Positions 5,216 to 63,854 of a DNA stretch of 64,000 bases are shown here, one piece after another (position 1 is the stretch's first letter; each line of letters begins with the position of its first letter). The position numbers and the translations under genes are program-made. This stretch comes from Lepidodermella squamata (taxonomy: Eukaryota; Animalia; Gastrotricha), in assembly GCA_047495785.1 (NCBI GenBank), contig JBLDXI010000007.1, positions 2,108,001-2,172,000 of the forward strand, given 5' to 3'. The notes under the pieces are model-generated. The model had not been told where the DNA came from. It did no database searches and saw only the letters and a list, made by a program, of their open reading frames with translations.

Positions 5216-6565
5216 TTAAATTGCATTGGCGGCAATCCAATCTAAGTGCGATGCCACACGGGTCTGAATGGTGTAGCCGGCGTAATTGCAGGCCATGGTG
5301 CTAATCGAAGTGATGCCACACAGCTTGTAATAGCCCTGCGAGTATGACATGACAGGGGCGCCAGAATCGCCTTGACACGCCGATACACCCGCATTTTCGT
5401 ATCCTTTTTAAAATAACTCGATTAGCAACGTTTTTACGCGGAAATAATCGCCATGCCTGTGCACATAATTGAGTCGGCTATCGCGAGTTTATATGGAGTT
5501 TGACAAGCCGCTTTGCCAACAATCGGCGTTGTGGTGTATCTCAGCACATGGGAAAAAGCCCCTTCGCGATTTGTGCGACCCCACCCTGACATTCAAAATC
5601 AAACAAGTAAAAATTCAAACCAAACGAGTTGATATTTACCAGCAGTCACAGCTGCCGTACCAACACTGCAATCGTCGGAAGCTGATGTTGGGAGGCAGAT
5701 TTTCTGAACAGCCCAGGTCGTGAAGTTCAGTGCAGCTGTAAAAACGTTTTTTTTTAATTAGTTTTTACAAATTATTGTTAGTAAATTTGAAAGTGAAACG
5801 AGTTATTGCAAAACGTACCTGACAATTTAACAAGTCCGATATCATTCACAAAATCGATACCGTATGAAGCGTGATACTTCCATGATGCAGCTTGTACCGT
5901 GAATTCGCCATCGGAGGCAGTTGTATTGTGTTCGGCGATGGTCACAGTAATGGACCTTGAAGAAAATATAAACTATATTGAAAGCTCTGGGGTTAGTTGC
6001 TATTCGGAGTTACTGGATATAATTGCCGAGGCAATGGGCTGCAGTTAACACATATCTAAGCGGAAGAACGAATATTATCGAGTCGAAAATTACCGTATTT
6101 CATCGATTAATAGCCTCCCTCGAACAATTGTGTTTTCGGAATTTTCGAGATTTCGGAATTTTTTAGCAATGGCTATTATTTGATGAAATACGGTAATTAG
6201 AAAGGGAAGTTGCTTGCCTTTCGCTTATGATACTGCCGGTGCAATAGCTTGTTTGCTTCAACCCTTGTACGGTCTCAGCAATGCTCAGACGCACAGCCCT
6301 GTTGCATACGTGAGCTACAGCAAAGAAGCGCTAATTTAAAAAATGCATACCATGGGAATTGATTCTGCTGAGCGACCGAGCCTCCGACGATACCGGCACC
6401 GGGGGCATCTCGACTGTTGTAGTACCTCGAATGGCCGCACGTTTTTGAAACAGTTGTCGGCGGGGGTGTCGATGGAACCAGCTGATCCATGACGGTTTTT
6501 ATCCAAGGCAGGGCCATATTGGCAACAGCAGCAGCAAAGCTGCCGCAGTAGCGCCGGGGTGAACC
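5216..6565 (-). CDS. Trypsin-family (S1) serine protease, multi-exon; preceded by the tail of a probable second, degenerate protease-like domain; 5' end unresolved (to ~6910)
   Basis: The spliced translation gives IVGGSVAQQNQFPW|AVRL...YCTGSIISER|YVLTAAHC...NDIGLVKL...KICLP...GWG...MCTG|YENAGVSACQGDSGAP...TRVASHLDWIAANAI*. The His/Asp/Ser triad is intact, with Ser at the S1-pocket position. Two introns need GC donors (6217 and 5456). Confidence 0.9.
6093..6193. mobile_element. Tc1/mariner(pogo)-type MITE, 101 bp, in a protease intron
   Basis: TIRs ccgtatttcatcgattaatagcc / ggctattatttgatgaaatacgg, flanked by TA at 6091-6092 and 6194-6195. Confidence 0.8.
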
Positions 6566-6959
6566 TTTGAGATTGAAGAGAACAATGATGGTAATTCTAC
6601 CTGGGAACTAACGGGTAAGGCCCGAATCGAGCCTGCTGTAATCTCTACGCATGCCAAGACCAAGATCCAAGACCAAGACCCACTGTAACCTCCCATATCC
6701 TCACCCAACGGGAGCACTAAGCGAACGGCGTTACCACACAGCGGCGTTGAATGCGCAACATGAAGAAAGGCACGCCTGGCAAGCGACAGCAGTGCTCGAG
6801 GAAGTAGACTCTGACGTAATATTCGTAGGACGGAATCTCAGGATGGCGTCCTGCGTCCTGCGCCTTGCGAAGGTAGCTGGGTAAACGGGGGAGACCAGTT
6901 AAGCACACCCTGTACAAAAGAGGTGACACCTCTAGCACCACCGATTCATACCGTACATA

Positions 6960-7096
6960 TGAGACCCGCCAAGCGATTTCGTCCCTTATTAATCATTTGA
7001 AAAGACAACATCTGGCGCATAGTCCCAATTGCACAACACCCACTTTTCGAATGATTGAACACCGAGAACAGGGCCGAAATCGCTTGGCGGGTCTCA
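6960..7096. mobile_element. MITE, ~137 bp, with ~26-bp TIRs
   Basis: tgagacccgccaagcgatttcgtccc / gggccgaaatcgcttggcgggtctca (1 mismatch), with TA on both sides. Confidence 0.75.
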
Positions 7097-7279
7097 TACC
7101 GTAGTTCTAAGCCACGACTACGGTAGAGCTCGGCGGCACGGTAATTCTTCAGCACGGTGCCGTAGTTTTAACTTGAACATTTTCTTCTATAGAAATGAAA
7201 GTTTCCAGAAACTGTCTTGTTTGAAACTAACGCGAAAAACAATTCAGGGACACCTTCAAAAGACTAGCATGTCCGGGAC

Positions 7280-7350
7280 TGCACGATAGCTCAGTTGATA
7301 AGGTGCCTGGCTTCGAGTGTTGAATTGAGGGTTCAAATCTCATCTGCTAC
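7280..7350 (+). pseudogene. tRNA-Arg(TCG)-derived remnant or SINE head
   Basis: A-box TAGCTCAGTTGA, GATAAGGTGCCTGGCTTCG (resembling eukaryotic tRNA-Arg GATAAGGCGTCTGACTTCG), B-box GGTTCAAATC and T6 at 7356-7361. The acceptor and anticodon stems do not pair, so this is not a functional tRNA. Confidence 0.65.
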
Positions 7351-7499
7351 TGTCATTTTTTCATTCTGTCCACCTACGATATCGTGCTAAATGGCAACGT
7401 GATCTGCGATTGAATATTAAATTTTCTGAGGTTCTTTAATTGATAATATTTACTCGACGCTTCCCATCGCGCCACAGCTTTGAGGAAGTTTACTGGAGT

Positions 7500-8180
7500 A
7501 TGGCTACACCAGCGAAGAAGCCATTTGGAATGACTGTCGAAGAGCGAGCGAAGAAGCTGCGGGTCGACGATCTTACGGTCGATCAAGTTGCTCTCGTCAT
7601 GCAGCTAATCCAGCAGTTACGCTCGGAGAATGCTGACACCGTTCCGTCGTCTCCCTGCCCGCCGACTGGGCAGTCCCCTCCTCACCTGTCTTCGTTCGGT
7701 GACCTTCAGATGTCTGTTGACAGTCCACCGTCCTCCCCACCCCCGTCGTCAAGTGGGGCGTCGAACCAGCCGTGGCAGCAAGCGTCGCCCAAGCGTAAAG
7801 TGGCGCGCAAGGAAGACCCGCCGCCGCCGCCGCCCCCGACACGTACATCTGCTCCCCACCCGTCTATTGGACCTCAAGAGGCGCCTGTCAACTACAAGGT
7901 CGTGATAATCGACCGCGTCACTGGCATGACTCGTGGAGAGCTCGAGCCAGAGTTGGTCCGCGTTGCGCCATGGCTGGCGCCCGTCGCTGTCGATGTCATG
8001 AGCAGCGGCGGCCTCCGCGTGAAGTGCGCCACTGCGACGGACGCTGACAAGCTACTCAAGCGTGCCGGCTTCCCTAAGGGTGCGTTTCGCGACTCAGACT
8101 TCCGCATTCACTATCCGGGCCGGCCTGACCCGACTGTGACCGAATCAGATCGCATTTTGAAAGACAAACGCTCGGCCATA
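7500..8180 (+). CDS. LINE ORF1 (gag-like), N-terminal part, broken by the insertion
   Basis: ATG at 7500 begins a Pro-rich ORF ending KDKRSAI. It is in the same frame as 11874-12674, and joining the two gives KRSAI-YLNRLP (RNP2-like). Confidence 0.8.
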
Positions 8181-8699
8181 TGATACCGCCAAATCTCGTC
8201 TCCACTCGCCTACCGGCTCGTTCCGCCTCGATTTCACTCGTTTCATTCGTTTTACTCGATCTATATTTCGTGCTTCACTCAAATATAGATTCCTATTCAT
8301 GTTATATCATACAAATATCGAATTGTCAAAGCTACTCGACCTATATTTCTGGCGACAATTCGGCGACAATATTTGTTAGTATTGTTAAAAGAACCATTTC
8401 GAACATTTTCGCTTTTTATTGGGTAAGATGGTGCATGTAGCTCTGGTAATATAGCCTTTGCGTTATTTGTTGCGAAGTCAATTATACCTTTATTCATATA
8501 ATATTATCAACATATTTATGATAGGTCTTTGGAATTCTCCATTCAAGCCTGGCGAGTAGTCCCGTATAACTATAATTTCCAGTATTATTAAACAACGATT
8601 CGTTGAAATAGTCGATATTTAATAGAAATTAGTCTAATCGAAACATTTCACCGACTAATTATCATCGTCCAGCATTCACCTAGTTAATAATTTTCTGGC

Positions 8700-10642
8700 T
8701 TATGGAAAAAGCCGTTTCCATAAAGGAGACGATCTCATCTTATCCATTAAAGCTTTGTCTACCTCTTTTTGTACATCCCCAATTATATGATCTATACTTG
8801 TGATTGGCTTTGGGTTGGAAGTTGCTAATTGCAGGATTTTCTCAATCAAATATTTACGCATGGTTACAACACGGGAAATGTATCTTCGTTTATACGTATC
8901 CTGATCAGACTTATCGAGCTCAATGTTCTGAATTATTTGTTCGTATAAATCCTGGTCGAAACACCCAAATCTGGCGAAGCCTTTGCGACAATATTTTACG
9001 ATTTGTGACAATTCCTCAGATTTCTCCCACTCGTCAAGCTTCCCCGAAGGATACTGGTCGCAGTGCGTGAGTACCATCATGCTGCATTCTGCAAGTTCAG
9101 GTCCCAAGAAGTCTCTTACTTTTTGAAACAAGTTCATGTCCATTATTTCCGTTCTTCCAGCCTCGGAAACAAACCAGACTGCATGCAGCTTAGTTATGTT
9201 GCATCGCAAGAATGTACTTATCAAGTGCAATAGACTTTCAACACTCGGCTCTGATCCATCACTGAAATATGCTTGGAAACCTGGCGTATCAATAAAGTTG
9301 ATCTGGTAACATTTATCGCGGACATTGATGGCGATTGGTGCCAAAACGGGATGTTTTGTTTGCGAGAAACCTTTTCTTGACGCGCCTATATAAGGATTTA
9401 TCAGTGTTTGAATGATTGTCGACTTTCCAACAGAGGTTTTTCCAAGAAGTAAAATATTGATTGATTGGCAATATTGTACCGTGAAATCTGGCTGGTGGTG
9501 ATCGGACATTGCCGCGATTTGTTTGGTTATGTATTGTTTTCCAATCACCTGATCCATTGAAGGTCTTACAATAGGATCACGTACCAATAACTCCTTAACA
9601 ATGAATTCTTTAAGTTCATCGCTAACATTAGCCGCAATCGGGGTAATGGGGTCACTCCGAATGTTACGAATCAGGCGCGGCACATCGAAAACGCCTCGTG
9701 CTGGTGGAAACTAAAGCAAAGAGCTGAAAAATTCGTGAGTAGTAAGAAAGAACAAAACTTACAGGCAGTGATAAAGCTGCTATTTCGTACACAACTACAC
9801 CGTAACTCCAAACTTCGCATTTTTCATCATATGTGATGTTTCCAGATTCCAAGGTCACTAGCTCTGGTGAGAAATGTGTGTATGTTCCAACTAAACCTTC
9901 AACCTGCTCACTTCGCATAAAAAGGAGTATAAAAAGGTACTGGAACTAAGTAAACACCTTGAATAACAGACCTGTCGAACGATTTAGCAATGCCGAAATC
10001 TCCCAATTTTATCGACCGGTTCTCCATTAAGAAGATATTCTGAAGGTCATAGTTTAAGGTTTAACAAACTAACACAAAATCCACTAACCTCTGTTTTGAC
10101 GTCACGGTGTAGGATGCGCTTACTGTGTAAATGCTTCAGAGCGACGGCAAGTTGAGCTGCCCATTTCGCGATGTCGCTTTCTGAGAAGGGCTTTCGACTT
10201 TGCTGTTCGATGGCGTCTTTTAAAGTACCATTTTTGAAAAACTCCATTAATATATGAAGCGTCGTGCACTCTTATTTTTCGAAAGTGATGTAGGAAAAGG
10301 TAGGTCATAAGCTTACAAATCAGTTTTACCAATGAAGTGACCAAAAACGTGTACCACGTACTCATGGGGAAGGACAGACATCATTTTAACTGCCTGAAAA
10401 TGATTATATGCTACATACAGAAAACATGTATATGTGATGAGACGATTGTTTACCTCTTTGCAAACCATATCTTTAACCTCTTGCTGTGAAAATTTAGTAA
10501 GATCAACTTTTTTTAGCGCAAGAGTAATTCCATCCCTCTTGCTTTTGACCATCCACACTTCTGTAGCTGCTCCAAAGCCTCCTTTTCTGATCTTACGGAT
10601 AGTTTCATACTCGTTAGAACTCCAGTCGGAAGAAGAATTCAT
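8700..10642 (-). CDS. NEK-like Ser/Thr kinase fused to a C-terminal AIG1/GIMAP-like GTPase; 6 exons
   Basis: Five GT-AG introns give a continuous frame. Kinase motifs: KGGFG, ALKKV, HFIECTTLHILMEF, HRDVKTENIF, KLGDFG, GTYTHFSPE, EVWSYGVVVYE, RDPIVRPS. GTPase motifs: GKTSVGKS (G1), SQT (G2), DTPG (G3), THCD (G4), followed by a helical tail. Confidence 0.88.
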
Positions 10643-10805
10643 GATTGGAACAGTCAAATGAAAGGAAACAGGAAGAAATCTCTTTATTGCACTCTCAAAG
10701 CACCTCTTATTAATACCCTACCATTTGCACAGCATATTTCTTTCGTTTAGTAAAGTTCTTATGAAAGTGTCTTATCTATTACGAAAGTTGCTATCCAACT
10801 GATTA

Positions 10806-11300
10806 CAGTGCTCTCTCGATATAAGCAACCCCGATAAGAGCTACTCGCTACTAGCAACTTTTCCTGGATCCCGTTGCTTTTATTTGTTAAAAAAATCTTT
10901 TTCGACAAATTAAAATTTTGTACATGATAATTTTTAATTTACATGAAGAATTTGTTTACGTTAGCAACAGAATTGTAACGCTGCTCCTGGCGTTTGTGAT
11001 TTTTCAGTTGGACGGCGGCGCGCCGTGATCACTTGATCTCCATCTTTACAGATCGATGTTTTTTATCTCAGCACTGGCTTCAATTTTGAGATCGTGCGCG
11101 CGTTTGCTCTCTCGTATTTTTTCATTCACAAACACTACACACTACTATACTAGCCAATGATGAGATTTTTTGAAGAATGATAGTGATTACGCTACGGTTC
11201 AGAAAAAATGATTTAAATAGCGATCAAAAGCAAACCGCTGATTATCTACTTTTTGACCAAAGAGTTGAGAACAGATATTCAAGCTTGTTGCATTCCATCA
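10806..11300 (+). mobile_element. Truncated pogo/Tigger-like element remnant
   Basis: TA|CAGTGCTCTCTCGATATAAGCAAC resembles a Tigger-type TIR start. No matching right TIR was found, so the right boundary is a guess. Confidence 0.35.
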
Positions 11301-11873
11301 AAGCACATCACGAGGAATTGCCGTGAATCTGTTTTAATTCAATAGAAATGTGAAAAAGTTAGGATGCAGCTTCGGCTCAAGATTCAAGCAAACTTCCAAC
11401 AAGATTTCAAAGCAAGTTTCGCCCCGAGTCCTTCAGTTTTTGTCACGGATTTATGAGAAAAGATGCGTTTCAATCTTGGATAGATTTAGGATCACATGCT
11501 CCTAGCCGAATTTTACCTAACATTGTTCGCTTATCCGCTAGTGTATCCATGGTTTGTCTTATTTGAACCTGATAGAATTGCTAAATTTAATTCTAATGAA
11601 GGCTTTCAAGCTTTGTTAACCTTCAAATTTCCAATTTTGGATCAATTAAATTAAAATGTCGCATTCCAATTAAATGGCTCTCAAATATCGCCGGGTAAAT
11701 TCGCGTAACCGAAGTGTCCTGATCATAAATGAAGAAATTATTCGATGAAATATTTTTCAGAAAATGTGAGAAAAAATGTCAGCCAGCTTAAAATACAATT
11801 GGAGTTCAAATGATCAAACTTTGCATATCAAATACTATCTACCACATCGAAAATAATTACATTAACACCAGAT

Positions 11874-12674
11874 TATCTGAACCGCCTGCCCTCCTGTTAC
11901 ACTGGCGCTACTCTGCGCCCACTTTTCCGGCCCGAGTATATCGAGGAAATCCGCGAGATTCCCCCGCTTCCTGGTAAGCAGACGTCGCCGATGGTGCTCG
12001 TCTTTCGAACGGCTGAGCATTACGAGGATGCCATGGCTAACGGTGTCAAGTTTCTGAATCGTCGCATTAAAGTCCACAAGTTGAAAAGCAAGGCTCTCCC
12101 GCCTACCTGTCTGAAGTGCGCCGCTTACGGCCATGTCGCTGTCGATTGTTCTCCGGACACCACGCAACGCTGCAGCCGCTGTGCTGCGACTGATCACACG
12201 ATTTCCACCTGTCTCGCTGAGCCTGAAGATCGTCGTTGCCCCCACTGCAGTGGCGGCGGTGAGCCTCATCATTCTGGTTCGTGGCGGGGCTGCCCTGCGT
12301 TCAAGACCGCCCAGGCTGACGAGGTAGCCCGTCGCCGTGCCATCGCCGTCGCCCGTGAAGCGAAAGCCGCCGAACGTGAAAAGCGTCGTCAACAAGCGAA
12401 GGTCCCCGAGCACCTGCGGGGTGGCCCCACGCACTTTCTCTCCACTCGTGACTTTGTCGGCGGACCAACGCCTGCTCCGTGGTCATCCCCTTCTCCTGCA
12501 CTCCGCGGTCACTTTCTGTCGCCTGATGGCGCCCGGCTCTTTAGTCTTATGGAAGAGCGGTTCCAGCGTATGGAAGCCGCTTTCGAGCGCCGACTCGACA
12601 CTGTCGGCCGCTTATTCGACCGGCTCTTCGCCTCCCCGCTGCCGCCACAAACCAGCTCGACTCGTAATGGCTAA
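11874..12674 (+). CDS. LINE ORF1 (gag-like), C-terminal part with three zinc knuckles
   Basis: CLKCAAYGHVAVDC, CSRCAATDHTISTC and CPHCSGGGEPHHSGSWRGC. The stop overlaps the ORF2 start by 8 nt. Confidence 0.9.
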   Translation, partial: YLNRLPSCYTGATLRPLFRPEYIEEIREIPPLPGKQTSPMVLVFRTAEHYEDAMANGVKFLNRRIKVHKLKSKALPPTCLKCAAYGHVAVDCSPDTTQRCSRCAATDHTISTCLAEPEDRRCPHCSGGGEPHHSGSWRGCPAFKTAQADEVARRRAIAVAREAKAAEREKRRQQAKVPEHLRGGPTHFLSTRDFVGGPTPAPWSSPSPALRGHFLSPDGARLFSLMEERFQRMEAAFERRLDTVGRLFDRLFASPLPPQTSSTRNG

Positions 12675-15536
12675 TACGCTGCGTACGCTACTACAATGGA
12701 ATCCGTGCGGCCTCCCCGGCAAGGAAGCTGAAACTTGTCAACAGCTAGAGACTTATAAACCCTTTGCTCTTTTCATAAGTGAATCCTTTCTTTTCTCTCT
12801 TTTGCGTGTAACCTCTAGGGATTATGCAATTTTTCGTTGTGATCGGGTACAGGACTCCGAGGATCTGTTGCTCAACGGCGCTCGTGGCGGCGCTGCTCTG
12901 TTTGTTCGGGAGGGCGCTCTCGTGGTCGCCGAGCGGCGGCTGGCTCTGACTGGTCGCAAGCTTAGTGAGTGGCTCGCTTTGGATGCTGTCCCTTTCGCTG
13001 GCTCGTCTGTTGTTCGTCTTCTTACCGGCTATTGTCCGCCGACGTCGTCCTTGGATCTCAGCTTCCTGGAAACCGAGTTCGCTGGGGCCTCCGCCTCCGG
13101 CCTCCCATCTTTAGCGGGGATCTCAATGGCAAGTCTCCACTGTGGGGTTCACAGTCCCACGATTTATGGAACCCTCACGGCGATTCCGTACATCATTTCG
13201 TCACCCGTCTCGGTCTGACTGTTCTCTCCTCGCCTCCCACGCACCTGTCGAAAGCTCACAAGACCCTGTCTACGCTCGATATCTGGATTGTCAACGACGC
13301 GGCGCTTCGCCTTCTCGATGGTGGCGTGTCTGTTGGCGACCGACTTAGCAGCGATCACTTCTGCACGTCTGTCAGGGTTCGTCTTCCGTCCGGCTCTGGC
13401 CCTGCTCACGTCTACGACCTCGTGGACCCTGCTCCTCGCTACGACATCTCCAGAGCCGATCGTTTTGGATTCTCTCGTACCCTGATCCGGCTGCTGTCCG
13501 AAATCCCGCTGCCTAATGTCGGCGACCCAGTGATTCGGATCGACTCGTATCGGCGCCAGGTTGGTGCGGCAATCGCCGAATCTCGCCGTGTTCACGTCCC
13601 TCTGCTCGACCGCACTCAGTTGAGAAAAGTTTCAATGACCCGCGACATGCGTAGCCTGCTCGAAAGAAAGAGGATTCTTGAACGTGGGCTCGGCAATCGA
13701 GTTGATGCCGGGCTTGTCGATAGGATCAACGCCTTGGACGCCCAGTTCCGCGCTGCGAAAGCGGCTCAGCAATTGCGGCGGGATATCTCCAACCTGCGGT
13801 ATGTTGAAGCTCTGTCGTTCCAGCACCGCTACCGAGAGGCTTATGCCCGCCTCCGTCGTCTCGATAAGTTTCGCCCTACCCCTGTTGATCGCCTGACCTA
13901 CATGAAGCTCGATGATGGCAGTGTCCTGCCGCCTTCTACTGCCCTTGCTGATGCACTGCTTGATCATTTCGTCAAACCGATGTCGCCCTACGTCGACCCC
14001 GATGCGGACGCTGCCACTCGCCAGTGGTGGCAACAAGTCGAGGACGATGTCGTTGCAGATCCTGACCTTCGGGCTTCCGATGTGATCCGCTTGCCCGCTC
14101 TCGGCGAGTTTTCTGTCAGTCAACGGATGCTCGCTGATGCTGTTAGCCGTTTGAAGTCCTTCAAGGCCCCTGGCTTGGATGGTATTCAAAACATCTACAT
14201 GAAGTGGGGTGGCCCTGTCCTGCAAACCCACCTTCGTCGGCTGTTCAACATGTCTCTTGGCAGTCGCTACGTGCCTCAAGCGTGGAAAGAAGCGGTTGTT
14301 GTGCCTATCCCAAAGGCCGGCAAGCCGCAGAACCATGACTCGTCACAGCGTCCCATCTCCTTGCTGCCGACTGACGCCAAGCTCCTGGAGTCGATCGTGG
14401 CTCGGTGGATGACCCAGTTTCTCGAAAGTCAACACCTTCTCCCTGAGAATCAGTTTGCATTCCGTCCGCACCATTCCGCGCCCGATGTCCCAGTTCGCAT
14501 CGTTCATCGCGTCCGCGTCAACCGCTCCCTGCGCAAGAAGACTGTCGTGGCCGGCTTGGATGTTCAGGCGGCCTACGATTCCGTGTGGCACGCCGGGCTG
14601 ATCCATAAGCTGGCCCAGCTGCCTCTCCCGCGAAATTTGGTCGGCTGGCTGGCCGACTATCTTCGCGACCGTCGTCTGCAGGCTCGCGTGGCGGGCTCGC
14701 TGAGTCGTCAAGTCGTCGTCCATTGCGGGGTGCCGCAGGGTTCCCCGTTGTCGCCGCTTCTCTACATTCTGTACACCGCCGATTTGCTGTCCGCCCCAAG
14801 CGTGGGTGGCACGTTGCTGCAGGCCTACGCGGACGATCTAACTGTCGTCGGCGAGGGTGGCACGTTCCCTGCTGCTCAGCGTCGCCTCCAATTGGAGCTC
14901 ACTCGTATTTCCGACTGGGCCAAGAAATGGCGCCAGAAGTTTAATCCCGCGAAGAGCGAAGTTATGCCCTTTGGTAACGCGTCCGTTGCTGTTAGGCTCA
15001 ACGGAGCCGTAATTCCGCAAGTCGAGTCGTTACGAGTTCTCGGTGTTCACTTGGACCCTAAACTGACGTGGAAAGTTCATGTGGACAAGGTCTCTGACCG
15101 TTGCCGCAGAAATCTGGGTTTTTTCAAACATCTCATGTTCACCCCTGGGCTGTCGCGCCGCTGGCGCCGCACCCTTTACTTGACTCTGGTCCGTTCGTGC
15201 TGGTCTTATGGGACCATTTGTCTGGCTACCGCCTCGAAGCAACAGCTTAATCGTCTCGCAGTCATCCAAAATGATAGCCTGCGTGCAATGCTCCACATTC
15301 GTCGGGACGACAGGGTCCGCGTGTCGGAGTTGGAATCTCGTTGCCGCATCCCGAGCGTCCCTCGGTTTCTGGAACAGTGCCAGCGCCGTTATGTCGCCAA
15401 AGCCGCTCAGTTTGTCCTGCCGCTGCGCGAGGACCTCGAGAGCGTCCGCCTGATGGCCCGCCCCCCTCCGCGCTCGCCCTTCGTGCTGTTGAGCAACAGA
15501 CTTCCTCGTGGTCCTCTGCCCGACTTCATAGGCTAG
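12667..15536 (+). CDS. LINE ORF2: APE endonuclease + reverse transcriptase, with one frameshift at ~13105-13115
   Basis: ATG at 12667. Endonuclease motifs: LQWN, ISES, GGAALFV, GYCPP, [frameshift], GDLNG..WGS, TLDI, SDH. RT motifs: RPISLL, QFAFR, LDVQAAYDSV, GVPQGSPLSP, YADD, LGV. No RNase H is evident. Confidence 0.93.
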
Positions 15537-15926
15537 GCTGTTATTCTCTTTTCTCCCATCTTCTCTCCTATATCTTCCCTCTTTTTCTTCATCTCTTCTT
15601 TCATGTTGTTTTTTTTCCTCTTCAGGCTGCCTTGCTTTTTTATAAAATTCCTCCGTTAGCTACCGTTGTCTCCGCCATATTTTCTCCTTTTTACTCTTAC
15701 CGCAATTCTCTGTAATGTGTTTCTCTCTGCTATCGATAACTACCCTGCAACTGATAAAACCCTCGCCATCTCCCTCTCCGTCTCTTACGTGCCCCATCAA
15801 TATGATGAGCATGGATACATCTTACTCGCACGCGCCTCTTGTTCCATAGTATTATTAGAGAGTTATTTTGTGTATTTTTTATTTGGAAAGAGGACAACAA
15901 TAAAGATTTTTATGTTTTTTTTTATC

Positions 15927-15964
15927 ACTACAGTAGAACTACGGTAAGAACTACGGTAAGAACT
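15927..15964. repeat. Short tandem 12-bp repeat (agaactacggta)
   Basis: ctacagtagaactacggtaagaactacggtaagaact. The same motif occurs in both orientations at ~7097-7170, on the other side of the LINE. Confidence 0.6.
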
Positions 15965-16236
15965 CAATTTTTGGTGCGCGCTTAATGTCACTAATGGTGC
16001 GAAGTACAGGGGTGCTGGGGTGTCGCGACATCTCAGTGCCCATTAGGCATTTTTCGAGTTTCGAGTTGCCGTTTTCGATCGAATAACAAAATATTGCCGA
16101 ATTGTCGTTGCTCAATTGTCACACAACCACGCAAGAATATGGGGAATCGCCTATTTGTGGATCCAACAAATCAAACCTGTGCACTTAAACGCGTGCGCAA
16201 AAGGCGTGCATAGATTGTGCGCACACTGGCGGCATA

Positions 16237-16276
16237 CAAACAAACAAACAAACAAACAAACAAACAAACAAACAAA
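16237..16276. repeat. (CAAA)10 microsatellite followed by small hairpins; possible Helentron-associated (HINE-like) element end
   Basis: Ten perfect CAAA units, then tgtca...tgaca and ggggg-tt-ccccc stems at ~16282-16320. Confidence 0.75.
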
Positions 16277-16405
16277 CAACTTGTCAACTCACAAACGGTG
16301 ACAGTATGGGGGTTCCCCCCGGCATTTTCGGCGTGTAACGCGGAAAAGCTTTATCCCAAAAATGCACAGTGTAATTAAATTGATAAATGAAGTTTTTTTA
16401 TTTTG

Positions 16406-18129
16406 TTAACACATGGAGTCGGACGTAACGCATTGCTGAGATCTCGGGCAGTATTTGGCCTGTCCTTTGCAAGCGGTGCAATTTTGTTCCTCATCTCCAT
16501 GTCGACAGTCTTCGCTGCCATCACACACCTTCTCAGTCGGGATGCAATTCCCGGAAAGACATTTATATTCAAAAGCAGTGCAAGGCCGGCAAATTTCATC
16601 GGATTTATCTTCTTCTCCGCAATCCTTTAAATTTTTGAAAAATAAATAAAAACAAAGAAAAAATGCGGTTGCTTTTAACTTACAAAATCACCATCGCAAA
16701 TGTATCTATTTCATCAATCGATTAATTCAATTCAATTAATATAAAGTATTCAAAAACTCACGTTTCTGGGATGCATGTTGTACTGTTCAAGCATTTGAAA
16801 GCTCGATCGGCGGGGCATTTCGAGCAGGTTGACTCATCCCAGCCATCATCGCAGTCTTTCTCACCGTCGCATACCATAGCGAAACCGATACACGCCCCTT
16901 CAGGGCATTTAACTCCACCGGAACCGCATGGGCAGTCTTGAAATTCATCGTCAGAACAATCTCTCTTGCCGTCGCAAACCCAGTACTTCGGAAGGCAATA
17001 ACCGTCACTGCAGCGGAAATCACCTTCCTCGCAGGGTAGGTCGTCGCAGTTATTCTCATCAGCACCACCTTCGCAGTCTTCGAAGCCATTACATCGATAG
17101 TCAGTAGCGCTAATGCATATCGTTGTATTCGGGCAATTGAAAGTTCTATCATCAAGGCCGCTGCAAGTCAGGCAGCCTACTTCGTCTTGTCCCGATGGGC
17201 AATCTTCTGATCCATCGCACTGTTTACTGAATTAAAGACTTACTTATTAGATTTTTTGGTCAAACATTTATTTTACGCTATTTTATTGAACTTTGAAATT
17301 TGAATTCAATTATACTGTTATTTAATTAATAAAACTTTAAATTTTAATTTTAAATTCGAATTTATTTTAAAGAGAAAACGAACCTTGCGCTGATGCATTT
17401 CGACGAGCCTTGGCATAGGAATGACCGGTCCTCTGGACATTTCTGAAAAAGCGTAATTATTTTTGTTAACAGAGTAATATTTTAATTAATTTTACCGAAC
17501 AGTTGCTTTCGTCCGACCCATCGTCACAGTCTTTCTCGCCATTACAAGTTAGACCCCAATCAGCCAGGCATTTTCCACTGCTTACACATTTGAACGTGAG
17601 ACACGGGCAGTTCTCTTCGTCATCCTCGCACTGCTTCATCCCATCGCATCGCTGGCTCGCGTCGAGACATTTGCCGTCCGAGCACTTGAACCGTGTAGCA
17701 GTATCACAGCAGTTAAGCTCGTCCGATCCATCCTCGCAATCGTCTTCTCCATCGCAAACGGATTCCTTGTGGATACAGGAGCCGTCTTTATTGCACAAAA
17801 ATTCATCAGGCGTGCACGCTAATGTTGGTTACAAAAAAAGTAGGTTAAACGCTGTTTTATTGCTGTGACCTCTCATCGCACTGACCTGCATTTGAGCAAT
17901 TAAGCTCATCAGCGCCGTCGGGGCAGTCTTTGTAGCGATCGCAAAGGTCGCTCGGCTGAAGTTTCTTCCCGTCCGAACACTGAAAACCGCCATCGCTAGT
18001 CTGTAATTGATAGATAAAAATGAGTACAACAATGTTAAGGATGCGCACCTTTTTTAATTGCCCCTCGATGATACATGTCAGCAGGGCAAAAACAGCTAAA
18101 AATCGGCAAAACTCGGTTATTATAGCCAT
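16406..18129 (-). CDS. Secreted protein made of ~10 LDL-receptor class A repeats; 8 exons including a 22-nt micro-exon (16684-16705)
   Basis: Signal peptide [23 protein letters not shown], then repeated C..F.C....CI....CDG..DC.DGSDE..C units. It ends in a partial repeat (VTSDSMC*) with no TM segment. Confidence 0.88.
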
Positions 18130-18444: not shown

Positions 18445-21400
18445 TTATTGGTAATTGTTTAAAATCGAACAAAATTTTCTAGTTGGTCGGCACTCGAAAG
18501 CCGCCGCAAAGTCTTTATTATTCATAACGGCTCCCCTAACTCGAAGTGGAGCCGGGCTGTAAGTCGGCTCCGAAGCCGCTAAATCCGCCCAAGTTATACC
18601 AGGCGCCATAGCCGAACAATAGCCCTGCGCTTGGGCAATGAAAAACAACCTATCAAACTGGTTATCCCGATTCCGCCGCCGCTGGTACCAGCGATAGGCC
18701 ACCTGCAGGCCTACAACATCGGCAATGTCCTGCAGATATGTCCCCTGCGCGAAATTTCTATCGATTTTATACGACCCTGCGAGGGATGAGTAGAAATCGA
18801 CTATGCAAGACTTATGCTGGTAGAGTAAGCGAGGGTCGTCGCGGATGTAGAACGGCGAATTTCGGTCGAGAAATCGGGCTAAAATATGGCCGAGTTCGTG
18901 CGCAATAGCCGTCGCGACATTGCCGAACCTCACAGCGTCTAGATATTCAGGGTCAAAATTCGGCCTCTGAGCTGCCGGGTATTGAAAGACCACCGTATTA
19001 GTCGGGTTAAACATCGCAACGGCAACGTCTAACGGGCACATGGTGCCTAGTTCGAAGTTCCGACTGCCCGAGAAAACGGCCCGTAAATGTTGGCGAAAAT
19101 TAAACGCTCGAACTTGAAGTTTGTTAGTGAAATAACTAGCATTAGTAACGAAATTAAACGGTTGGTAAAATTGGTTTAGTTGCGTTTGATTGAGCGCCCA
19201 ATTAGGCGGACCGACGCGAAATGCGGTTTTGTCCAAAATTGACCTGATTTCGGACTTTGACCCAGGCGACAATAGCGGCGAGTCGGATACTGCTGTTGAA
19301 TAGCTTGCGATGATTTCGGACGCGATTTGGCGCAGTTCGTCTATATTTTGCCAGCCGTCGAACAGGTGTTTTCGGTAGATCGAGGCTACTGCGAAGGGTA
19401 GGGAGGTAGCGGTTTCGGTGAGACAGGCTTGTTGCAGCTCAGCTGTGATGTTCGGCGCATCGGTTTGGTTGATTATATCGACGTAAGGAAGGAAAGCTTT
19501 TGTGATGAGGTAGTCTTCAAGAATATCACGTCCCTGGGAAAAAAAAATAAAAAATATCATCATACTATTATGGCGCCTAATAACCTAAGTTGGGCGCGCT
19601 AAATTCGGGGTTCCAATGGGGTTCCAGCACTCAATTTCCCCAAATAAATGGTTTCCCGAGCTGAACGTTGAAGTTAACTTTGGAATCTAAACTTTTTATT
19701 GGGTATCTTGCCCAACCGATTGATGGCTGAGCCGATATCGATTTACCGTATCGAGTATCGATTTCAAAAATCAGTTATTTTTTCGATGTCACCTGACTTA
19801 TAGAAATTAACATTGAAATTGTGCCTACCTACATAATTGAGGTCATACTAGGTAATACAAAATCCAAGGGTCATTGGGTTCATCGATTTTAAAGTAGGAA
19901 TATTGAAATATTTAGACCCCTCCAGCCAAAATTGGTTCTAGATTTTCTTTTTGAGAACCTTGAAATAAAAACAAAAATCATTCATCCTTTATCATGTAAT
20001 TACAATTTCAATTTCAATTTCAAATTTTTCCTGATATTTCGGTTCAAATTTAAAAAATTCAAGAAGTTAACAAATTGAAAAAAATAATAGTTAATTAAAT
20101 TAAATTTTAATTTCTATTTTTTCCACTCACCTGTTTTGTGCTCATTTGATTTTCCATAAATTTGCACAGCCTCGTTAAATACGAGCAAAACGTAGATGTA
20201 GTGTAGAAAATCTGAATTCGCATCTCGTTATAGCCGACATTTTTAGCAAAACTGTCGATTATCGACGTCCAGTTCAACATATTGCAACATCTATTCAAAC
20301 GCACGGCGCTCGTCTCAACGTAAGACGCGTCTCGCCAGCCGCTATCCACCTCCACCAGTTGCTTCTCGAAAGTTTTAATTTTACCACGAACTCGAGAGAA
20401 ATACGGCCCTAAGAGGCGTTCGAAAAGCACGGAAACACTCTCGGCATGCTCTTCTGGCATCGCTGCGCCGCGAAATGACCCAACCGAGACGACAAACACT
20501 TGGTTTGAAGAGCCTTCTAGATTATCGACGTAAAATTTGAATAAATGATCATGGGTGTAGTAGCTTAGACGATTGATGCGTTCGTTGAGGCTTAAAATTT
20601 CGGCGCCGGTTTTCGAGCGGTAATAACTCCACCCACCGAGGTGGGCCAGGTGAGTTCGGAAACTGGCGTCATTTGACGCCCAATCACTGGCTCGGATGCA
20701 GGTATCATAAAAGGCCTTGACCTTTAGCTCGGAATCTTCGACAAATTTGGAAGGATCGCCTGTTAAAAAAATTAAAATTAAAATCAAATTTTATTAATAT
20801 TCATTTTAATAAATTTAAATGGTTCTACGACAACTGAGACCGGACAACCGAGACCAAAATATAAATAAATAATATTATTTTCGCTAACCGAGACACCGAC
20901 AACCGAGACCAAATAATTCGATTTAATAATTAATTAAATCTCGGACAACCGAGACTCCGACAACCGAGACACCGACAACTGAGACCAAATAATTATAATA
21001 AATTAAATTTTTAATAAAAGCCTAAATTGAAGCCGAATATTGAGCATATTGAGCATATTGAGACCCCAATCCAGCCCTAACCCTAACCCTAACCCTAACC
21101 CTAACCCTAAAACGTAAAGTATATGTGAGTAAGCCATTCCTTTGTAAATTTAATTTATTATAATTATTTGGTCTCAGTTGTCGGTGTCTCGGTTGTCGGA
21201 GTCTCGGTTGTCCGAGATTTAATTAATTATTAAATCGAATTATTTGGTCTCGGTTGTCGGTGTCTCGGTTAGCGAAAATAATATTATTTATTTATATTTT
21301 GGTCTCGGTTGTCCGGTCTCAGTTGTCGGAGTACGATTTAAATCGATAAAATAAAAATAGATTAAAAATTAATTTCACTGAAAATAAATTTAAATCTAAA

Positions 21401-22590: not shown

Positions 22591-23126
22591 CTGGTTGGAT
22601 CACATTTCTTCGGATTTCTTTAACCCCATTCACAAGAAACATATTTGATTACTATTCTTATGGTGTTTTGGATTATCCTAAAGTTTTTTGGCCATGAGAT
22701 ATGACTTTGCCTCTCATTTTAGAGTTTCTGATCCCTTTTCCCCGTATTTTTTGTTTGCGTTAGGTACTTGTAGGTGGGATTGTGATTTAACAAGGCCTCT
22801 CTTCTACCGTACATTTTACCTCAATTTTTCTTTCGTTTTTCATCATTCAGCATTCATCATTACCAAGTATGCAACAATATCAAGCATTGTTTCCTAAACA
22901 AGTGGCCTGGGAATAATTTGCATAGAATAAGGAATAGAATCCACCCTAAATCGATATATACCAGCACCGCGTTATTAATATTTAAAACTCGCATCGACAC
23001 TTCATTATTAAGATGAGCTCGCAAAGAGACTTTCCCTCACACTCGTGCCGCGTAAATAATCGACAATGCCGGCTGCATCTCTAAAGGACAATTTCCTATA
23101 GTAATTTTCATTCACTGCCGACAAAC

Positions 23127-24703
23127 ATGAAAATTCTCACATTTTTGCCGAGGAATTTTCGCCAACCTTCTTTCTTTTCAATATTCCTGATTGCAGGTGT
23201 TTTCGTCGAGATTGCCGTCATTTTCCTATACTACTCGAGTGTGAAGACTCGAAACAATCTAGCCATCACCTTGAACCAACACCTTCCAAATGTCTTGAGA
23301 AGTAACCCAGGCAGCGCTGAGGAGGCCTTTAGAACCTGCCAATCCGCAAAGTTGTGGTGGTCCCAGCGATTTTTCCGAACTAAACGAGATAAGGACTCAA
23401 GCCCTGTGAGAGACTTTTCGAAAAATCCTATTAGAATAGGCGGCTCTAATTTCGACGAATCTTCCCTAATCAACAACTGCCCAGTTCCTTGCATTCACTA
23501 CCCACCAGAATCAAAGTTGAGCGACGAAGATAAGGGCATTTATTTCGACGCTAGTTTCGTGGAAGAACCCGGAATTGCTCGGGAAAAGCCTTACCTAGGC
23601 CTATCTGTCCTCCGAACCATGGAATCGAGTGTCTACTGCGAAAAATCTCGGTTAAAAGAGGCGAAATCTGCTTTTGACCTAGTTATGACGCCTAGACTTG
23701 ACAGCGTGTCCCTTACTTTTCATGGGAACTCTACGATATAATGAAGCCACCTCAAGAAAAAACTGCCGAGGCCCTGTCGTCAATTGTTGTCTCCAACTGC
23801 GAATCTCGCAACTTCAGACCAGAGGCTATTGAAGTCCTCGAGGACGAAAGCCGGCGATCTCCTGTGCCGATAGTCGAGGTCTATGGCTTATGTGGGCCTA
23901 ACCAAAAGCGGCTGGACTCTGACAAATTGGCAATCATGGGCAAGTACAAGTTCCATTTGGCCTTTGAAAACTCGAACGATATTGATTACGTAACTGAGAA
24001 GTTTTACCAAAGTCTAGCTGAAGGGACTGTACCTGTTGTCATCGGAGCTCCTAACATTCGCCTATTTCAACCCTCGAATAACTCAATTCTAGTCATCGAA
24101 ACCCTGGCTGAGGTCTTAAATATTGCGGATAAGATGCAACAACTCTCCGCTGATGAGAATGAGTATCAAAAATTGCTGGCGTGGAAGAAAACTGGTCCTT
24201 CGCAACAGTTCAAGGCCCTGGTTGATCTATCAGTGGTCCATTCAAGCTGCAGACTATGTATCAAAATTGCAGACCGTATCAGAGGTTTGGAGAGGGCAAA
24301 GTCGAAACAGCCAGAAGTCTGTAACTGCCAGCTTAACTCAACAACAATTGTCTTCCGGTTTCAAGTCCGAGAACGTGGCAGATTCAACTTCAGCGAAGGT
24401 TTCATCTACAGCTCAGAATTAACCTATCACCGCCTTAATCAATCGATTTTCGAGGCGGTAACTAAGGGCAAGGAGTACTGGCCGATTTGGAGTTGGGTCA
24501 GGGACGAAATTGGCCGTCGGCACCCGCAAGGAGCTTTCCCTCGTAAAAAACCGCCTACTTTCAACCTGTATCGAATCTACGAGGTCGGGACACCTCATGG
24601 TCAAGTTCTATTCGGTCGTTCGGCAATTGATTCCGACGAGAAAGTTGTTCGTCTCTTCAGCTCGAAAAAAGACTGCATCCAACTCGAAGTGATTTTTGTG
24701 TGA
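23127..24703 (+). pseudogene. Plant-type core alpha-1,3-fucosyltransferase (GT10) copy 1; intronless and frameshifted at ~23706-23711
   Basis: Type II TM, VLRTMES, [shift] PYFSWELYDIM, VSNC, YKFHLAFENSNDIDYVTEKFYQSL, VHSSCRLCI, VRERGRF, LYRIY, LEVIFV*. It is 7 nt shorter than the paralog at the shift. Confidence 0.85.
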
Positions 24704-26502: not shown

Positions 26503-29065
26503 TTAAGTATTTAGCACCATGATTACTTTGGGCGCGAAGATCACACTAAAGCATAGTCCATGGATGGCGAAGATTCCCGCAAAAAATACCGTTTGAATAG
26601 TGCCAGGATCGCTATCTTTGAAAACGGCGACAATCAAAGCGCCACAAGCTATGAAAACTATGCCAATACAGTAGGTGACAGTTCTGGTGAAATGCAAGTC
26701 GTTGATTTCGTCGAGCTCAAACTTCTTCAAAGCGAAAACAAGATACAAAGAACGCAAGAACACCAGCACGTAGCAAATGACGAAGAAACCGATGAAGCCA
26801 ACAGAGATTGTTGAACTTGCCGCTATTTCACAGCCTATTTGATAGGGTTTGTAACCCAAACTCTCATGAACGATTTGAAGATCGCCATGGCGGACAGATG
26901 TTCCTATCGGCTCGATGGCGAACCAAAGACTCATAAATGCGATTTCGATAAGAACATACATGACCACAGCAATGCAGCAACGCTTGATATTTCGGTCGAA
27001 AAATTGACGGTCTATTATTGTTTTGACTTTTGGGGCTGGAGTCATCATCATGCTACTAGCACTTTGGCTAGGCCCTCGGCTATTAGCGCTGGCCCTAGGG
27101 GAGGGTGCTGGAGCTACCCCTAAACTAGGACGAGAAGCTCCGGATTTATTGGTTGAGGCTCTGGAATTATTCAGGTTTGCAGTCAAAGTCTTCGATTTAA
27201 CACCAGTGGCGTAGGCAAGATGGAGTTTACCCAACAAAGCTGCTGCTATCATCGTAAAGCCGATGGTGAATGAGAGGGACCCTGCCATACAGTACTTACT
27301 AGCTTCGTGACTAGAGGCCCGAGGGAAGATGAAGACCGTGCATACCATCAGAATGCTACCAACAAGTACGAGGGTGCTCAACTGTACCACTGAATTCTGT
27401 ATGATAGGAGATGATCTTTTGAGTAAGAAGATGAGTACTACACCCAGGTCCATTGTGAGTAGGATTGCTGCAATAATCGATACTACCACGTCTGTCATGA
27501 ACGTCATTATCGGGGCTTTGGTAGCAAGAATCCTGAGCGAGTCGGCCGGTGCCTGGCCATCCGTAGTTCTCCATTTGATGTTGAATGGGCCATATCGAAC
27601 TAGAACAGGGCTGTAAGTCGTGTCAACAGAACCAACAGGGTAATATCGGACCCGCTTTCGATAACTAAGTTTTGTGTCATCCGACACCTGGACTTGATAC
27701 ACCGCACTAAGGGCTTTGAAGCTGTGGATGGGTAGAGTGCTTTCGAGGGTGAAGCTTTCATACTTCAGATCTTCAGTTTCACTTCTAATAATAGAACTTA
27801 TGAGGTCTCCGTTTTTTCTAAAATTTCCGCCCGAGGTCAGCCAATCCTTAATGGTTCCTAGACCAGCTTCCGCCAAACGCGCCTCCGTTCGATTAAGCAC
27901 GACTGCGCCAGAAATAACCTCACTGTAATAATGATCGCGTACAAAGTGCCACTGCGGCAGAAATTCAGCGTCAGGAATTCTAGATTTCATCATACTATCG
28001 AAAACACGCCCTGACATGCCAACGACATCTTTTGCATCGGGGAATACATCCAACCTCTTGCCGTGAGAGAAGTAGATGACAGACTTCAATATCTCAAACA
28101 AATGATCTTCCGAGCAGAATGGAGGCTTAGCAGGCGAGTCAGGGTAGAAAATCGTGTTTCCATTGAAGAGTATGACATACTGCGAGCCGTAGAGCTTGTA
28201 TTTATACAAATAGCACGAAATTACGACTGTCATGGCTGTGTTGAAAATCATGACCCGAGGGTCGAGACTAGCCAGCTCTCCAATCACTTGACCAACTGCT
28301 TCGTGAGTTGGGAGATTAGTGCCATCGAACGTTATTCGTACTACCCCAGCAACAGTCATATTTACATCTTGCATACCAAGACTTATCGAATCGTCAAGAA
28401 ACTTGCGAGTTTGTAAGGTTTCAGTCAGAAGGAAAACCCTCCTCCAATTTTGCGAGGCGAGAAAGTACGGCAGCGCATTGTAAATAGCATCAAATGACGG
28501 CATCAAGCCCATCCTGGATCTCCCAACCGATACGGCCCAAGTTGTGAAGCTTATCACATTATTAGGGCCAAATGCTTGGCCAGCGAAAGTTCCACCTGGG
28601 CAGTGAGGACCCAGCATTAGTGGAGCGTAATTCACCTTACCGTTCCACATGTTGTCAAGCATTTTAATGAGCATATCGACGCCGAAAGCGGCATTACATC
28701 TGTCATCAAACAGCTCGATGACTATTTCGTAGTTCGAGAATAGATTCGTGGAATTCATTAGGGCGTCGAGAGCGATTTGAATGCCCTCAAATGCAAGAGG
28801 TCCATGGGCGTTTTGAAGACCAGCTGAAGACCAGAAAAAGAGGGTTATCACTGTTATTGAGCGGCGTAATAAACAAGAAATTACCGATGCTTCCAATAAG
28901 AGGGATCCTAATTTGAGTCCGCGACTTGTTTGATTGCAGTGTATTAGACATATTGGCTCTCATTATTTTCGGCCATTCCGACGGAGCTTGAGCAAAAACC
29001 AGCAGTGAGCTTGAGCAAATGGTTGCCAAAACGAAGATCCTTGTTAGTTCTAGATATGATTTCAT
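26503..29065 (-). CDS. GABA-B-like class C GPCR (Venus flytrap domain + 7TM); exons 29065-28885 and 28823-26503
   Basis: Signal peptide, DDRCN..., LGPHC, WRRVFLL, seven hydrophobic helices, INDL before TM6, FAPKV at the TM7 end. No cysteine-rich domain; long Ser-rich ICL2. Confidence 0.88.
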
Positions 29066-42000: not shown

Positions 42001-42178
42001 ACGAAGTCCTACCGTAATTAATGGATGCTAAGATGTTCAGTCGCACTTTCCCGCTCCTCAAGCCACCTGAGGATGTTATGAGGCCCGGCATTGGTAGAGT
42101 CCAGTTGAACTTCGAATGCTGAGCTTCGATAACTGTGACGAAAGTCGCGAAGATTAAGATTGTATGACACAAGGTCAT
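39081..42178 (-). CDS. Divergent GABA-B-like class C GPCR; 10 exons, including a GC-AG intron at 40268-40321
   Basis: Signal peptide, LPDYELAAELIDDT|C, TGPMCS, GWRKIAVI, 7TM region, YMNDL, VFLPK, Ser-rich tail. All junctions keep the frame. Confidence 0.82.

Positions 42179-63290: not shown

Positions 63291-63854
<564 letters not shown>

What the first reader, a model, noticed from the sequence alone, without database searches (positions are those of the whole stretch)
8700..10642. NEK-like kinase fused to an AIG1/GIMAP-type GTPase
Seen in sequence: a catalytically complete kinase continues in frame, within the last exon, into a GTPase with GKTSVGKS/T/DTPG/THCD. Established: AIG1/GIMAP GTPases are immunity-associated and normally lack kinase domains, and ROCO proteins use a Roc-COR module that is not present here. 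Inference: this is a GTP-gated signalling or defence kinase, and its position as mobile cargo fits a fast-evolving immune gene.
Basis: partly seen in the sequence, partly recalled or inferred. Interest (0 to 1): 0.8.

Follow-up and report, generated by a model that had tools for sequence, protein, structure and literature searches.

The report
NEK-like kinase fused to AIG1 GTPase
An invertebrate animal gene, shown to be spliced into one transcript, joins a NEK-like protein kinase to an immunity-type (AIG1/GIMAP-like) GTPase that likely switches or positions the kinase; kinase-AIG1 fusions are already reported in a snail, salmon and fungi, but this one probably arose separately and lies in a DNA segment that interrupts a young retrotransposon.

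Summary
The fusion is real. One RNA-type contig carries all six exons, with five GT-AG introns removed, giving a 553-aa protein. The GTPase passes Pfam AIG1, keeps G1-G4 and folds like GIMAP7/Toc33. The kinase keeps its catalytic Lys, Glu, HRD and DFG, but has a Gly-loop Gly-to-Arg and a subdomain-IX Asp-to-Glu change. NEK1 is the best match for 2 of 5 kinase pieces searched. The architecture is not new: Pkinase+AIG1 is reported in Biomphalaria, salmon and fungi (PMC7053062). The snail protein has a canonical-type GIMAP with broken G1/G3. This GTPase instead belongs to a non-canonical group, otherwise stand-alone and often CaaX-ended, whose named members come from bdelloid rotifers and an oribatid mite; none of 151 relatives seen has a kinase. 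The single-copy gene lies in a 3,696-bp segment with a 6-bp direct repeat that splits a young LINE. Best reading: a GTP-controlled dimerisation or positioning switch on a kinase (about 0.4); an immune role is untested. The scan had not noted this on other DNA. New variant of a known kind; interest 0.4.

The parts
10454..10642 (-). Exon 1 coding part (res. 1-63): Gly-rich loop, catalytic Lys44, alphaC Glu63; the RNA contig extends 5' to 10691
10330..10393 (-). Exon 2 (kinase N-lobe)
10089..10270 (-). Exon 3: hinge, alphaE and catalytic loop HRD; Pkinase E 2.5e-13; best PDB match NEK1 (4apc, E 2.5e-9)
9972..10039 (-). Exon 4: DFG and start of the activation loop
9763..9910 (-). Exon 5: P+1 loop, SPE and subdomain IX with Glu200 in place of Asp
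9515..9710 (-). Exon 6, first part (res. 218-283): end of the kinase C-lobe; best PDB match NEK1 (E 0.035)
8825..9494 (-). Exon 6, AIG1-type GTPase domain (res. about 290-513) with G1-G4; intronless; linker to the kinase under about 10 residues
8700..8824 (-). C-terminal helical extension and stop codon; no CaaX end and no membrane helix
8554..8699 (-). 3' untranslated region covered by RNA-type contigs
   Evidence: records 2 and 3
8191..11886 (.). 3,696-bp inserted segment that carries the gene; a 6-bp direct repeat (ACCGCC) stands at 8185-8190 and 11881-11886
   Evidence: joints 8184 to 11881 and 8185 to 11882 in X2
8191..8360 (.). Piece of a very high-copy repeat at the left end of the insert; other copies run on beyond 8191
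   Evidence: depth and loose ends
10841..11880 (.). Multi-copy repeat upstream of the gene (about ten times unique depth); no transposase match seen
7402..8190 (+). 5' part of a non-LTR retrotransposon (LINE), ORF1 N-terminal half
11887..15923 (+). 3' part of the same LINE: rest of ORF1, then endonuclease and reverse transcriptase, AATAAA and a T-rich tail

Best explanation
This spliced, transcribed, single-copy gene encodes a 553-aa protein in which a NEK-like Ser/Thr kinase is joined by a short linker to an AIG1-type GTPase, and GTP binding likely makes the GTPase domains pair up and so likely switches on or positions the kinase. Shown: the gene structure, one transcript, both domain assignments, intact G1-G4, and the inserted position. 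Inferred: (1) The GTPase binds and hydrolyses GTP. (2) It dimerises head-to-head through the G interface, as GIMAPs, Toc34 and septins do. (3) Dimerisation brings two kinase domains together and activates them allosterically, as proposed for NEK7, with hydrolysis as the off switch; Arg403 aligns with the conserved-box arginine of GIMAP1 and pea Toc34. (4) The output is probably a cell-intrinsic stress or defence signal. Inferred origin: an intron-bearing NEK-like gene fused inside its last kinase exon to an intronless member of a non-canonical, usually prenylated AIG1 group; the CaaX anchor was lost; much later the finished gene was moved as DNA into a young LINE.
For: One RNA-type contig with all five introns removed. 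Pfam AIG1 above cut-off. Model pLDDT 88.7, with top folds GIMAP7, GIMAP4 and Toc33 (Z 15.6, 15.3, 15.0), and GIMAP chains in all of Foldseek's first ten ranks. Both active sites are kept although the GTPase is only about 30-40% identical to its nearest relatives: 43 of 53 group-conserved columns are kept, while the other 39 members differ in 1-18 columns. This implies long purifying selection. Head-to-head dimerisation of GIMAP, Toc34 and septins, and GTP-induced GIMAP2 dimers: passages of PMC5084822 and PMC8201404. R-fingers in AIG1/GIMAP and Toc34: passage of PMC10996617. NEK7 activation by induced dimerisation: abstract of PMC4632185. Arg403 alignment.
Against: No biochemical or expression-induction data exist. 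Arg at the position of Arg403 occurs in only 2 of 39 group members. The group's own conserved Arg and Asp after G3 (29 and 30 of 39) and the P-loop Arg-x-Gln (32 and 28 of 39) are changed here, so the dimer or catalytic surface may differ. The kinase has Gly-to-Arg in the Gly-rich loop and Asp-to-Glu in subdomain IX. The activation loop has Gly173 where NEK kinases carry their activating Thr (NEK position recalled, not from a call), which argues against classic activation-loop trans-phosphorylation. Some GIMAPs bind GTP but do not hydrolyse it. Expanded nematode AIG1 genes have no shown immune role, and plant ones also answer abiotic stress.
Confidence: 0.4

Rival explanations
1. The GTPase is an address label, not an on-switch. 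The kinase would be active on its own (acidic activation loop), and the AIG1 domain would pair with stand-alone prenylated AIG1 relatives on a membrane to bring it to its substrates.
For: 21 of the 39 closest relatives end in a CaaX-like motif, and this protein does not. Soluble GIMAPs pair with membrane-bound ones (passages). Glu169 and Glu172 lie in the activation loop.
Against: No stand-alone paralogue in this organism was seen; no genome is held, and read laying only finds copies at 90% identity or more.
Confidence: 0.25
2. The kinase is weak or inactive and serves as an interaction or decoy module on a GTPase that does the work.
For: The Gly-loop and subdomain-IX changes. The kinase is very divergent: the word-based search with exon 3 found 7 candidates and none at E 1e-5.
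Against: Lys44, Glu63, HRD-x-K-x-x-N, DFG and the subdomain-XI Arg are all kept, and Asp-to-Glu is conservative.
Confidence: 0.15
3. Control runs within one chain, or the other way round: the nucleotide state of the adjacent GTPase blocks or frees the kinase in cis, or the kinase phosphorylates the GTPase (ROCO-like logic without Roc-COR).
For: The linker is very short (about res. 283-290), which forces the domains into contact.
Against: No COR domain; Pfam Roc scores 13.7 bits against a cut-off of 27. The family precedent is dimer-based.
Confidence: 0.12
4. A recent, functionless chimera made during the insertion event and transcribed by chance.
For: It sits among repeats inside a young LINE; its branch is long; no fused relative was found.
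Against: 553 open codons, five accurately spliced introns, both active sites kept at deep divergence, and even GC3 in both halves (0.415 and 0.409). No near-identical donor copy of either half shows in X2, where the gene body has unique-sequence depth.
Confidence: 0.08

Closest known systems
Biomphalaria glabrata Bg690 / BGLB000690, Pkinase(260)+AIG1(248); kinase-AIG1 also stated for Salmo salar and fungi (PMC7053062)
   Same: Same domain order, N-terminal kinase then AIG1.
   Different: [quoted passage not shown] In the paper's alignment its AIG1 is of the canonical mollusc type (GNSILG, LKYGxRF, RxVLFNN) but lacks the G1 Lys-Ser and the G3 DxxG (read by eye). Here the kinase is NEK-like, G1-G4 are intact, the linker is short and the GTPase is of a non-canonical group. 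I saw no sequence for the salmon or fungal cases.
Non-canonical stand-alone AIG1-like GTPases (P0004-P0055 and others; named members from Rotaria socialis, Oppiella nova and, more distantly, Adineta vaga)
   Same: 27-42% identity over the GTPase, with the same motif pattern including THCD and the C-x-x-G motif; the window's domain lies inside this group (SH-aLRT 97).
   Different: 0 of 151 relatives seen carry a kinase. Many end in CaaX; the window's protein does not.
Human GIMAP1/2/4/5/7 and plant Toc33/Toc34 (TRAFAC, septin-related GTPases)
   Same: Fold, G1-G4, an arginine at the conserved-box position, and C-terminal helices.
   Different: About 17-22% identity. The PGP part of the conserved box and the RxxxFNN IAN motif are not kept. 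These proteins carry no kinase and often have a membrane anchor.
NEK1 and other NIMA-related kinases
   Same: N-terminal kinase domain; NEK1 is the best solved-structure match for exon 3 (E 2.5e-9, next family 3.6e-7) and for the start of exon 6.
   Different: The exon 1-2 stretch and exons 4 and 5 match CDPK, PKR/GCN2 and CDPK/ROCK slightly better. The usual coiled-coil tail is replaced by a GTPase.
ROCO proteins (LRRK1/2, DAPK1)
   Same: A kinase and a GTPase in one chain.
   Different: No Roc-COR unit, and the GTPase is AIG1-type. A functional analogy at most.

Membership tests
AIG1 domain (definition in PMC7053062) | Pfam PF04548 above the curated cut-off | tested here: met
   49.4 bits against 27
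AIG1 domain (definition in PMC7053062) | G1 GxxxxGKS, G2 SxT, G3 DxPG and G4 (TxCD/E in coral), in order | tested here: met
   res. 307, 333, 358, 432; motifs
AIG1 domain (definition in PMC7053062) | Conserved box between G3 and G4 | tested here: inconclusive
   HA..V...GR aligns with GIMAP1, but PGP and the RF/YTxE tail are not kept
AIG1 domain (definition in PMC7053062) | G5/IAN motif RxxxFNN | tested here: not met
   The aligned stretch reads C-R-K-G-F-A-R-F-G, as in the non-canonical group. By that paper's strict rule this is an incomplete or divergent AIG1 domain, so I file it as AIG1-like.
AIG1 domain (definition in PMC7053062) | GIMAP/Toc34 fold | tested here: met
   GIMAP7 Z 15.6, rmsd 4.1, 203 aligned; GIMAP4 Z 15.3; Toc33 Z 15.0 (these three and one unrelated small GTPase at 15.0 are tied within 1 Z); GIMAP chains fill Foldseek ranks 1-10
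GIMAP in the strict sense | Coiled coil in addition to AIG1 | not tested
   No coiled-coil predictor was run; the model has long C-terminal helices
GIMAP in the strict sense | Groups with vertebrate-type GIMAP domains | tested here: not met
   The seven rows with high AIG1 scores (my label) form one side of a branch at support 97, away from the query
GIMAP in the strict sense | GTP binding and GTP-dependent dimerisation | not testable with these tools
   Needs biochemistry
Active eukaryotic protein kinase | Catalytic Lys, alphaC Glu, HRDxKxxN, DFG | tested here: met
   Lys44, Glu63, res. 139-146, res. 159-161
Active eukaryotic protein kinase | GxGxxG loop and subdomain-IX Asp | tested here: not met
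   First Gly is Arg19; Asp is Glu200
NEK / NIMA-related kinases | Kinase domain most similar to NEKs | tested here: inconclusive
   NEK1 is best for 2 of 5 pieces searched, including the most informative one
NEK / NIMA-related kinases | Placement inside the NEK clade in a kinase tree | not tested
   No eukaryotic kinase relatives were retrieved
ROCO | Roc GTPase followed by COR | tested here: not met
   Roc is below cut-off and no COR match appears on the last exon
Cargo of a TIR (Pack-type) transposon | Duplicated target site | tested here: met
   6-bp direct repeat at both junctions
Cargo of a TIR (Pack-type) transposon | Terminal inverted repeats | tested here: not met
   No pair joining the two ends among the 25 longest of 82 inverted pairs shown, nor in a self-BLAST

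The most novel reading that the evidence does not exclude
An independent invention of a GTP-gated kinase. A native NEK gene captured a horizontally acquired, formerly prenylated AIG1 GTPase of a group scattered among transfer-prone micro-invertebrates (bdelloid rotifers, oribatid mites). The result uses GIMAP-type G-interface dimerisation to fire the kinase, a ROCO analogue built from different parts, and the gene is still being moved around the genome.
Probability: 0.2. Interest if true: 0.7.

Novelty: new variant of a known kind. Interest (0 to 1): 0.4.

Why it matters
If GTP-driven dimerisation does control the kinase, the protein is a compact (553 aa) natural test of how GIMAP-type GTPases signal, with a built-in enzymatic read-out; the GIMAP mechanism is still described as unclear (PMC8857920, passage). 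It would also show that kinase-AIG1 fusions arose more than once from different parts, and it points to a large, mostly unnamed group of CaaX-ended AIG1-like GTPases in small invertebrates. If the kinase is independent of GTP, it is one more lineage-specific domain shuffle in a family known for such shuffles.

Tried and rejected
Complex prediction of the GTPase domain as a homodimer with GTP and Mg returned 'no answer' (score 0.00), which says nothing either way. A second structure job on the whole last exon had not finished when I closed. The search for longer fused relatives (589-2000 aa) found none among 2,859 candidates, and the search with kinase exon 3 found none among 7 candidates; both are weak because they are word-based. 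The ESM Atlas gave no usable hit for the last exon; for relative P0004 it gave only eukaryotic AIG1/G-domain clusters. Three scans of viral contigs found no relative. The prokaryotic genome scan gave 21 short weak matches (best E 9e-7), and only 1 of the 21 matched the window's GTPase (E 4e-4), so a bacterial or viral donor is unsupported, though pattern searches can miss one. No run was on record as RNA; X1 is treated as RNA because it alone shows the spliced joints. Helitron, TIR and retroposition readings of the insert were considered and not supported: no CTRR end, no terminal inverted repeats, no poly(A), introns kept. Rfam found nothing credible in 5800-16700 (one match at E 0.43). Paper searches for a NEK-AIG1 fusion listed none by title or abstract start. 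Of the papers I opened, only PMC7053062 mentions kinase+AIG1; PMC3723955, PMC8857920, PMC12845241, PMC12258605 and PMC8778642 showed no such passage. No whole genome is held, so paralogues and the host taxon could not be checked.

Full report
Observation. Six-frame reading of 8500-10900 and a list of splice signals gave a six-exon minus-strand gene. Laying public contigs settled the model. In run X1 one 1,742-nt contig covers 10691-8669 with no other letters and skips 52, 61, 49, 59 and 60 nt at exactly the five introns. Run X2 covers 8313-10942 unbroken and shows none of these joints. X1 is only guessed to be RNA by the index, but the spliced joints show that it derives from a transcript. The coding sequence is 1,662 nt, or 553 aa. 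The kinase ends and the GTPase begins inside exon 6, so the fusion does not depend on a splice choice.

The kinase. Pfam Pkinase matched exon 3 above cut-off and exons 4 and 5 below it; exon 1 gave no family; exon 2 was not scanned. Against solved structures NEK1 was best for exon 3 (E 2.5e-9; Aurora A next at 3.6e-7) and for the first 70 residues of exon 6 (E 0.035). It was not best for the other three pieces: the exon 1-2 stretch, read through its in-frame intron (CDPK 0.16, NEK1 0.29); exon 4 (PKR, GCN2); exon 5 (CDPK, ROCK, then NEK2 and NEK7). So 'NEK-like' is likely, not proven. From recall only, four of the five intron positions and phases resemble those of animal NEK1-type genes; I could not test this. 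Lys44, Glu63, HRD-x-K-x-x-N, DFG, SPE and Arg266 are present. Departures: Arg for the first Gly of the Gly-rich loop with a 3-residue insert after it, Glu200 for the subdomain-IX Asp, and Gly173 where NEKs carry the activating Thr (recalled).

The GTPase. Pfam AIG1 scored 49.4 bits (cut-off 27), MMR_HSR1 34.5 (21.9) and Roc 13.7 (27). The best solved relatives by sequence were GIMAP1 and Toc34. An AlphaFold2 model from a 40-row alignment (pLDDT 88.7) matched GIMAP7, GIMAP4 and Toc33 best. G1-G4 are intact, with the coral-type TxCD at G4; the conserved box is partial and the RxxxFNN motif is absent (motif definitions from passages of PMC7053062). Arg403 aligns with Arg117 of the GIMAP1 chain and Arg133 of the pea Toc34 chain. 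That these are the arginine fingers is recalled; a passage of PMC10996617 supports it in general terms. Against its importance, only 2 of 39 close relatives have Arg there.

Relatives. A full HMMER scan with the last exon gave 425 hits at E 0.001 or better, of which the best 150 were listed; that makes 151 proteins seen and 275 hits not seen. The listed best stretches begin at residue 50 or later of the 336-residue exon, nearly all in the GTPase part. A local phmmer with the kinase domain found no kinase in any of the 151 (best E 0.58), and Pfam showed none in 30 selected ones. The closest are stand-alone proteins of about 270-400 aa; 21 of the 39 aligned, and 57 of all 151, end in C-x-x-[MQLSI], and the window's protein does not. 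A FastTree tree of 168 rows and an IQ-TREE mixture tree of 47 of them both place the window's domain, on a long branch, inside a starred set of these proteins and apart from the high-scoring GIMAP-type rows (my label; support 97). Its exact sister is unresolved. Of 30 clusters looked up, 3 name an organism: Rotaria socialis (P0040) and Oppiella nova (P0029) in the near group, and Adineta vaga (P0101) in a neighbouring group. The metagenome scan gave 46 loci; the nearest are short intronless contigs, and L005 has rotifer-like gene content (my reading). No close viral or prokaryotic relative turned up. These libraries hold mostly contig-level gene calls, which split intron-rich genes, so the lack of a fused relative is weak evidence. 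The host is an invertebrate animal with short introns (actin, RAPGEF-like, neprilysin-like and class C GPCR-like genes; names partly recalled). An earlier unchecked note called the genome nematode-like; I did not test that. Horizontal origin of the GTPase is therefore possible but not shown. It has been proposed for nematode AIG1 genes (passages of PMC6872716), while patchiness by repeated loss is argued in PMC3723955 (passages).

The setting. The gene lies between the 5' part (7402-8190) and the 3' part (11887-15923) of one LINE (RVT_1 and endonuclease). Removing 3,696 bp restores the ORF1 frame. X2 holds this uninterrupted form at depths 419 and 119 against about 47 for unique DNA, as well as the site without the whole LINE (joint 7401 to 15924). 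ACCGCC stands at both junctions. Four X2 contigs differ from the window's LINE at 15 substitutions in 1,739 bases (records 6, 9, 10 and 11), so the LINE, and therefore the insertion, is young. The gene body has depth 47.3, like unique sequence nearby (44.6-49.7), so it is single-copy at 90% identity or more. The insert's ends are repeats, with no terminal inverted repeat, poly(A) or transposase. The simplest reading is one DNA-level move of an old gene, by an unidentified element or by integration at a 6-bp microhomology. Caveats: X2 may be the source of the assembly, and no listed contig bridges a junction into the gene (many records were not shown), so the placement rests on the window's assembly.

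Mechanism. GIMAPs, Toc34 and septins dimerise head-to-head and tie hydrolysis to it (passages of PMC5084822, PMC8201404 and PMC9111091), and NEK7 is proposed to be activated by induced dimerisation (abstract of PMC4632185). Joining the two gives a direct model: GTP on, dimer, kinase on; hydrolysis off. I put it at 0.4, against 0.25 for a targeting role through prenylated relatives, 0.15 for a weak or dead kinase, 0.12 for control within one chain and 0.08 for a neutral chimera. A defence role rests on family association only, with GIMAPs induced by bacterial products in coral and snail, and I rate it at about 0.4.

Comparison with what is known. PMC7053062 (passages, first part of the Discussion, rows of supplements 3, 5 and 6) reports one Pkinase+AIG1 gene among 91 complete AIG genes of Biomphalaria glabrata and says the architecture is also known from Atlantic salmon and fungi. 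Its NCBI name is ROCK let-502-like, and its AIG1 row lacks the G1 Lys-Ser and the G3 Asp while keeping canonical GIMAP flanks (read by eye). AIG1 domains are also often fused to CARD, death and Hint domains. Four paper searches listed nothing on a NEK-AIG1 fusion; subscription journals and bioRxiv supplements were not covered. The scan's own earlier findings held no look-alike.

Verdict. A real, expressed and probably functional fusion gene. The architecture is known, but this is probably an independent version with both active sites kept, a non-canonical GTPase and a recent change of address. New variant of a known kind; interest 0.4.

Noticed in passing
window 7402-7439 (+): The first bases of the LINE lie in a bin with very high depth in the RNA-type run (about 19,500), with many different sequences following at 7435-7439. 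This looks like a spliced-leader sequence copied into a retroposed LINE transcript. The kinase-GTPase contig also begins just after an AG at 10691. One copy in the window; no paper hit for part of it.
   Followed up: partly
window 7270-7401 and 15924-16100: A high-copy repeat with tRNA-like A and B boxes (my reading) into which the LINE is inserted; the empty site is present in X2.
   Followed up: partly
window 23085-24703 and 37626-39018 (+): Two related GT10 fucosyltransferase genes (Pfam PF00852 for the first) that resemble plant core alpha-1,3-fucosyltransferases from recall; possible horizontal-transfer candidates.
   Followed up: no
window 26503-31904 and 39576-42187 (-): A cluster of class C GPCR-like genes, two of them as intronless ORFs of 765-818 aa (7tm_3 match for the first).
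   Followed up: no
window 20763-21393: A 248-bp inverted repeat pair (90% complementary) with short internal repeats, MITE-like, between neprilysin-like exons.
   Followed up: no
proteins P0004-P0151; loci L001-L018: A large, mostly unnamed group of stand-alone AIG1-like GTPases with CaaX-like ends (57 of 151), with named members in bdelloid rotifers and an oribatid mite; one search listed no paper describing CaaX-ended GIMAPs.
   Followed up: partly
window 63291-63857 (-): An actin gene with unusual substitutions near the N-terminus ([12 protein letters not shown]); it might help identify the host group.
   Followed up: no
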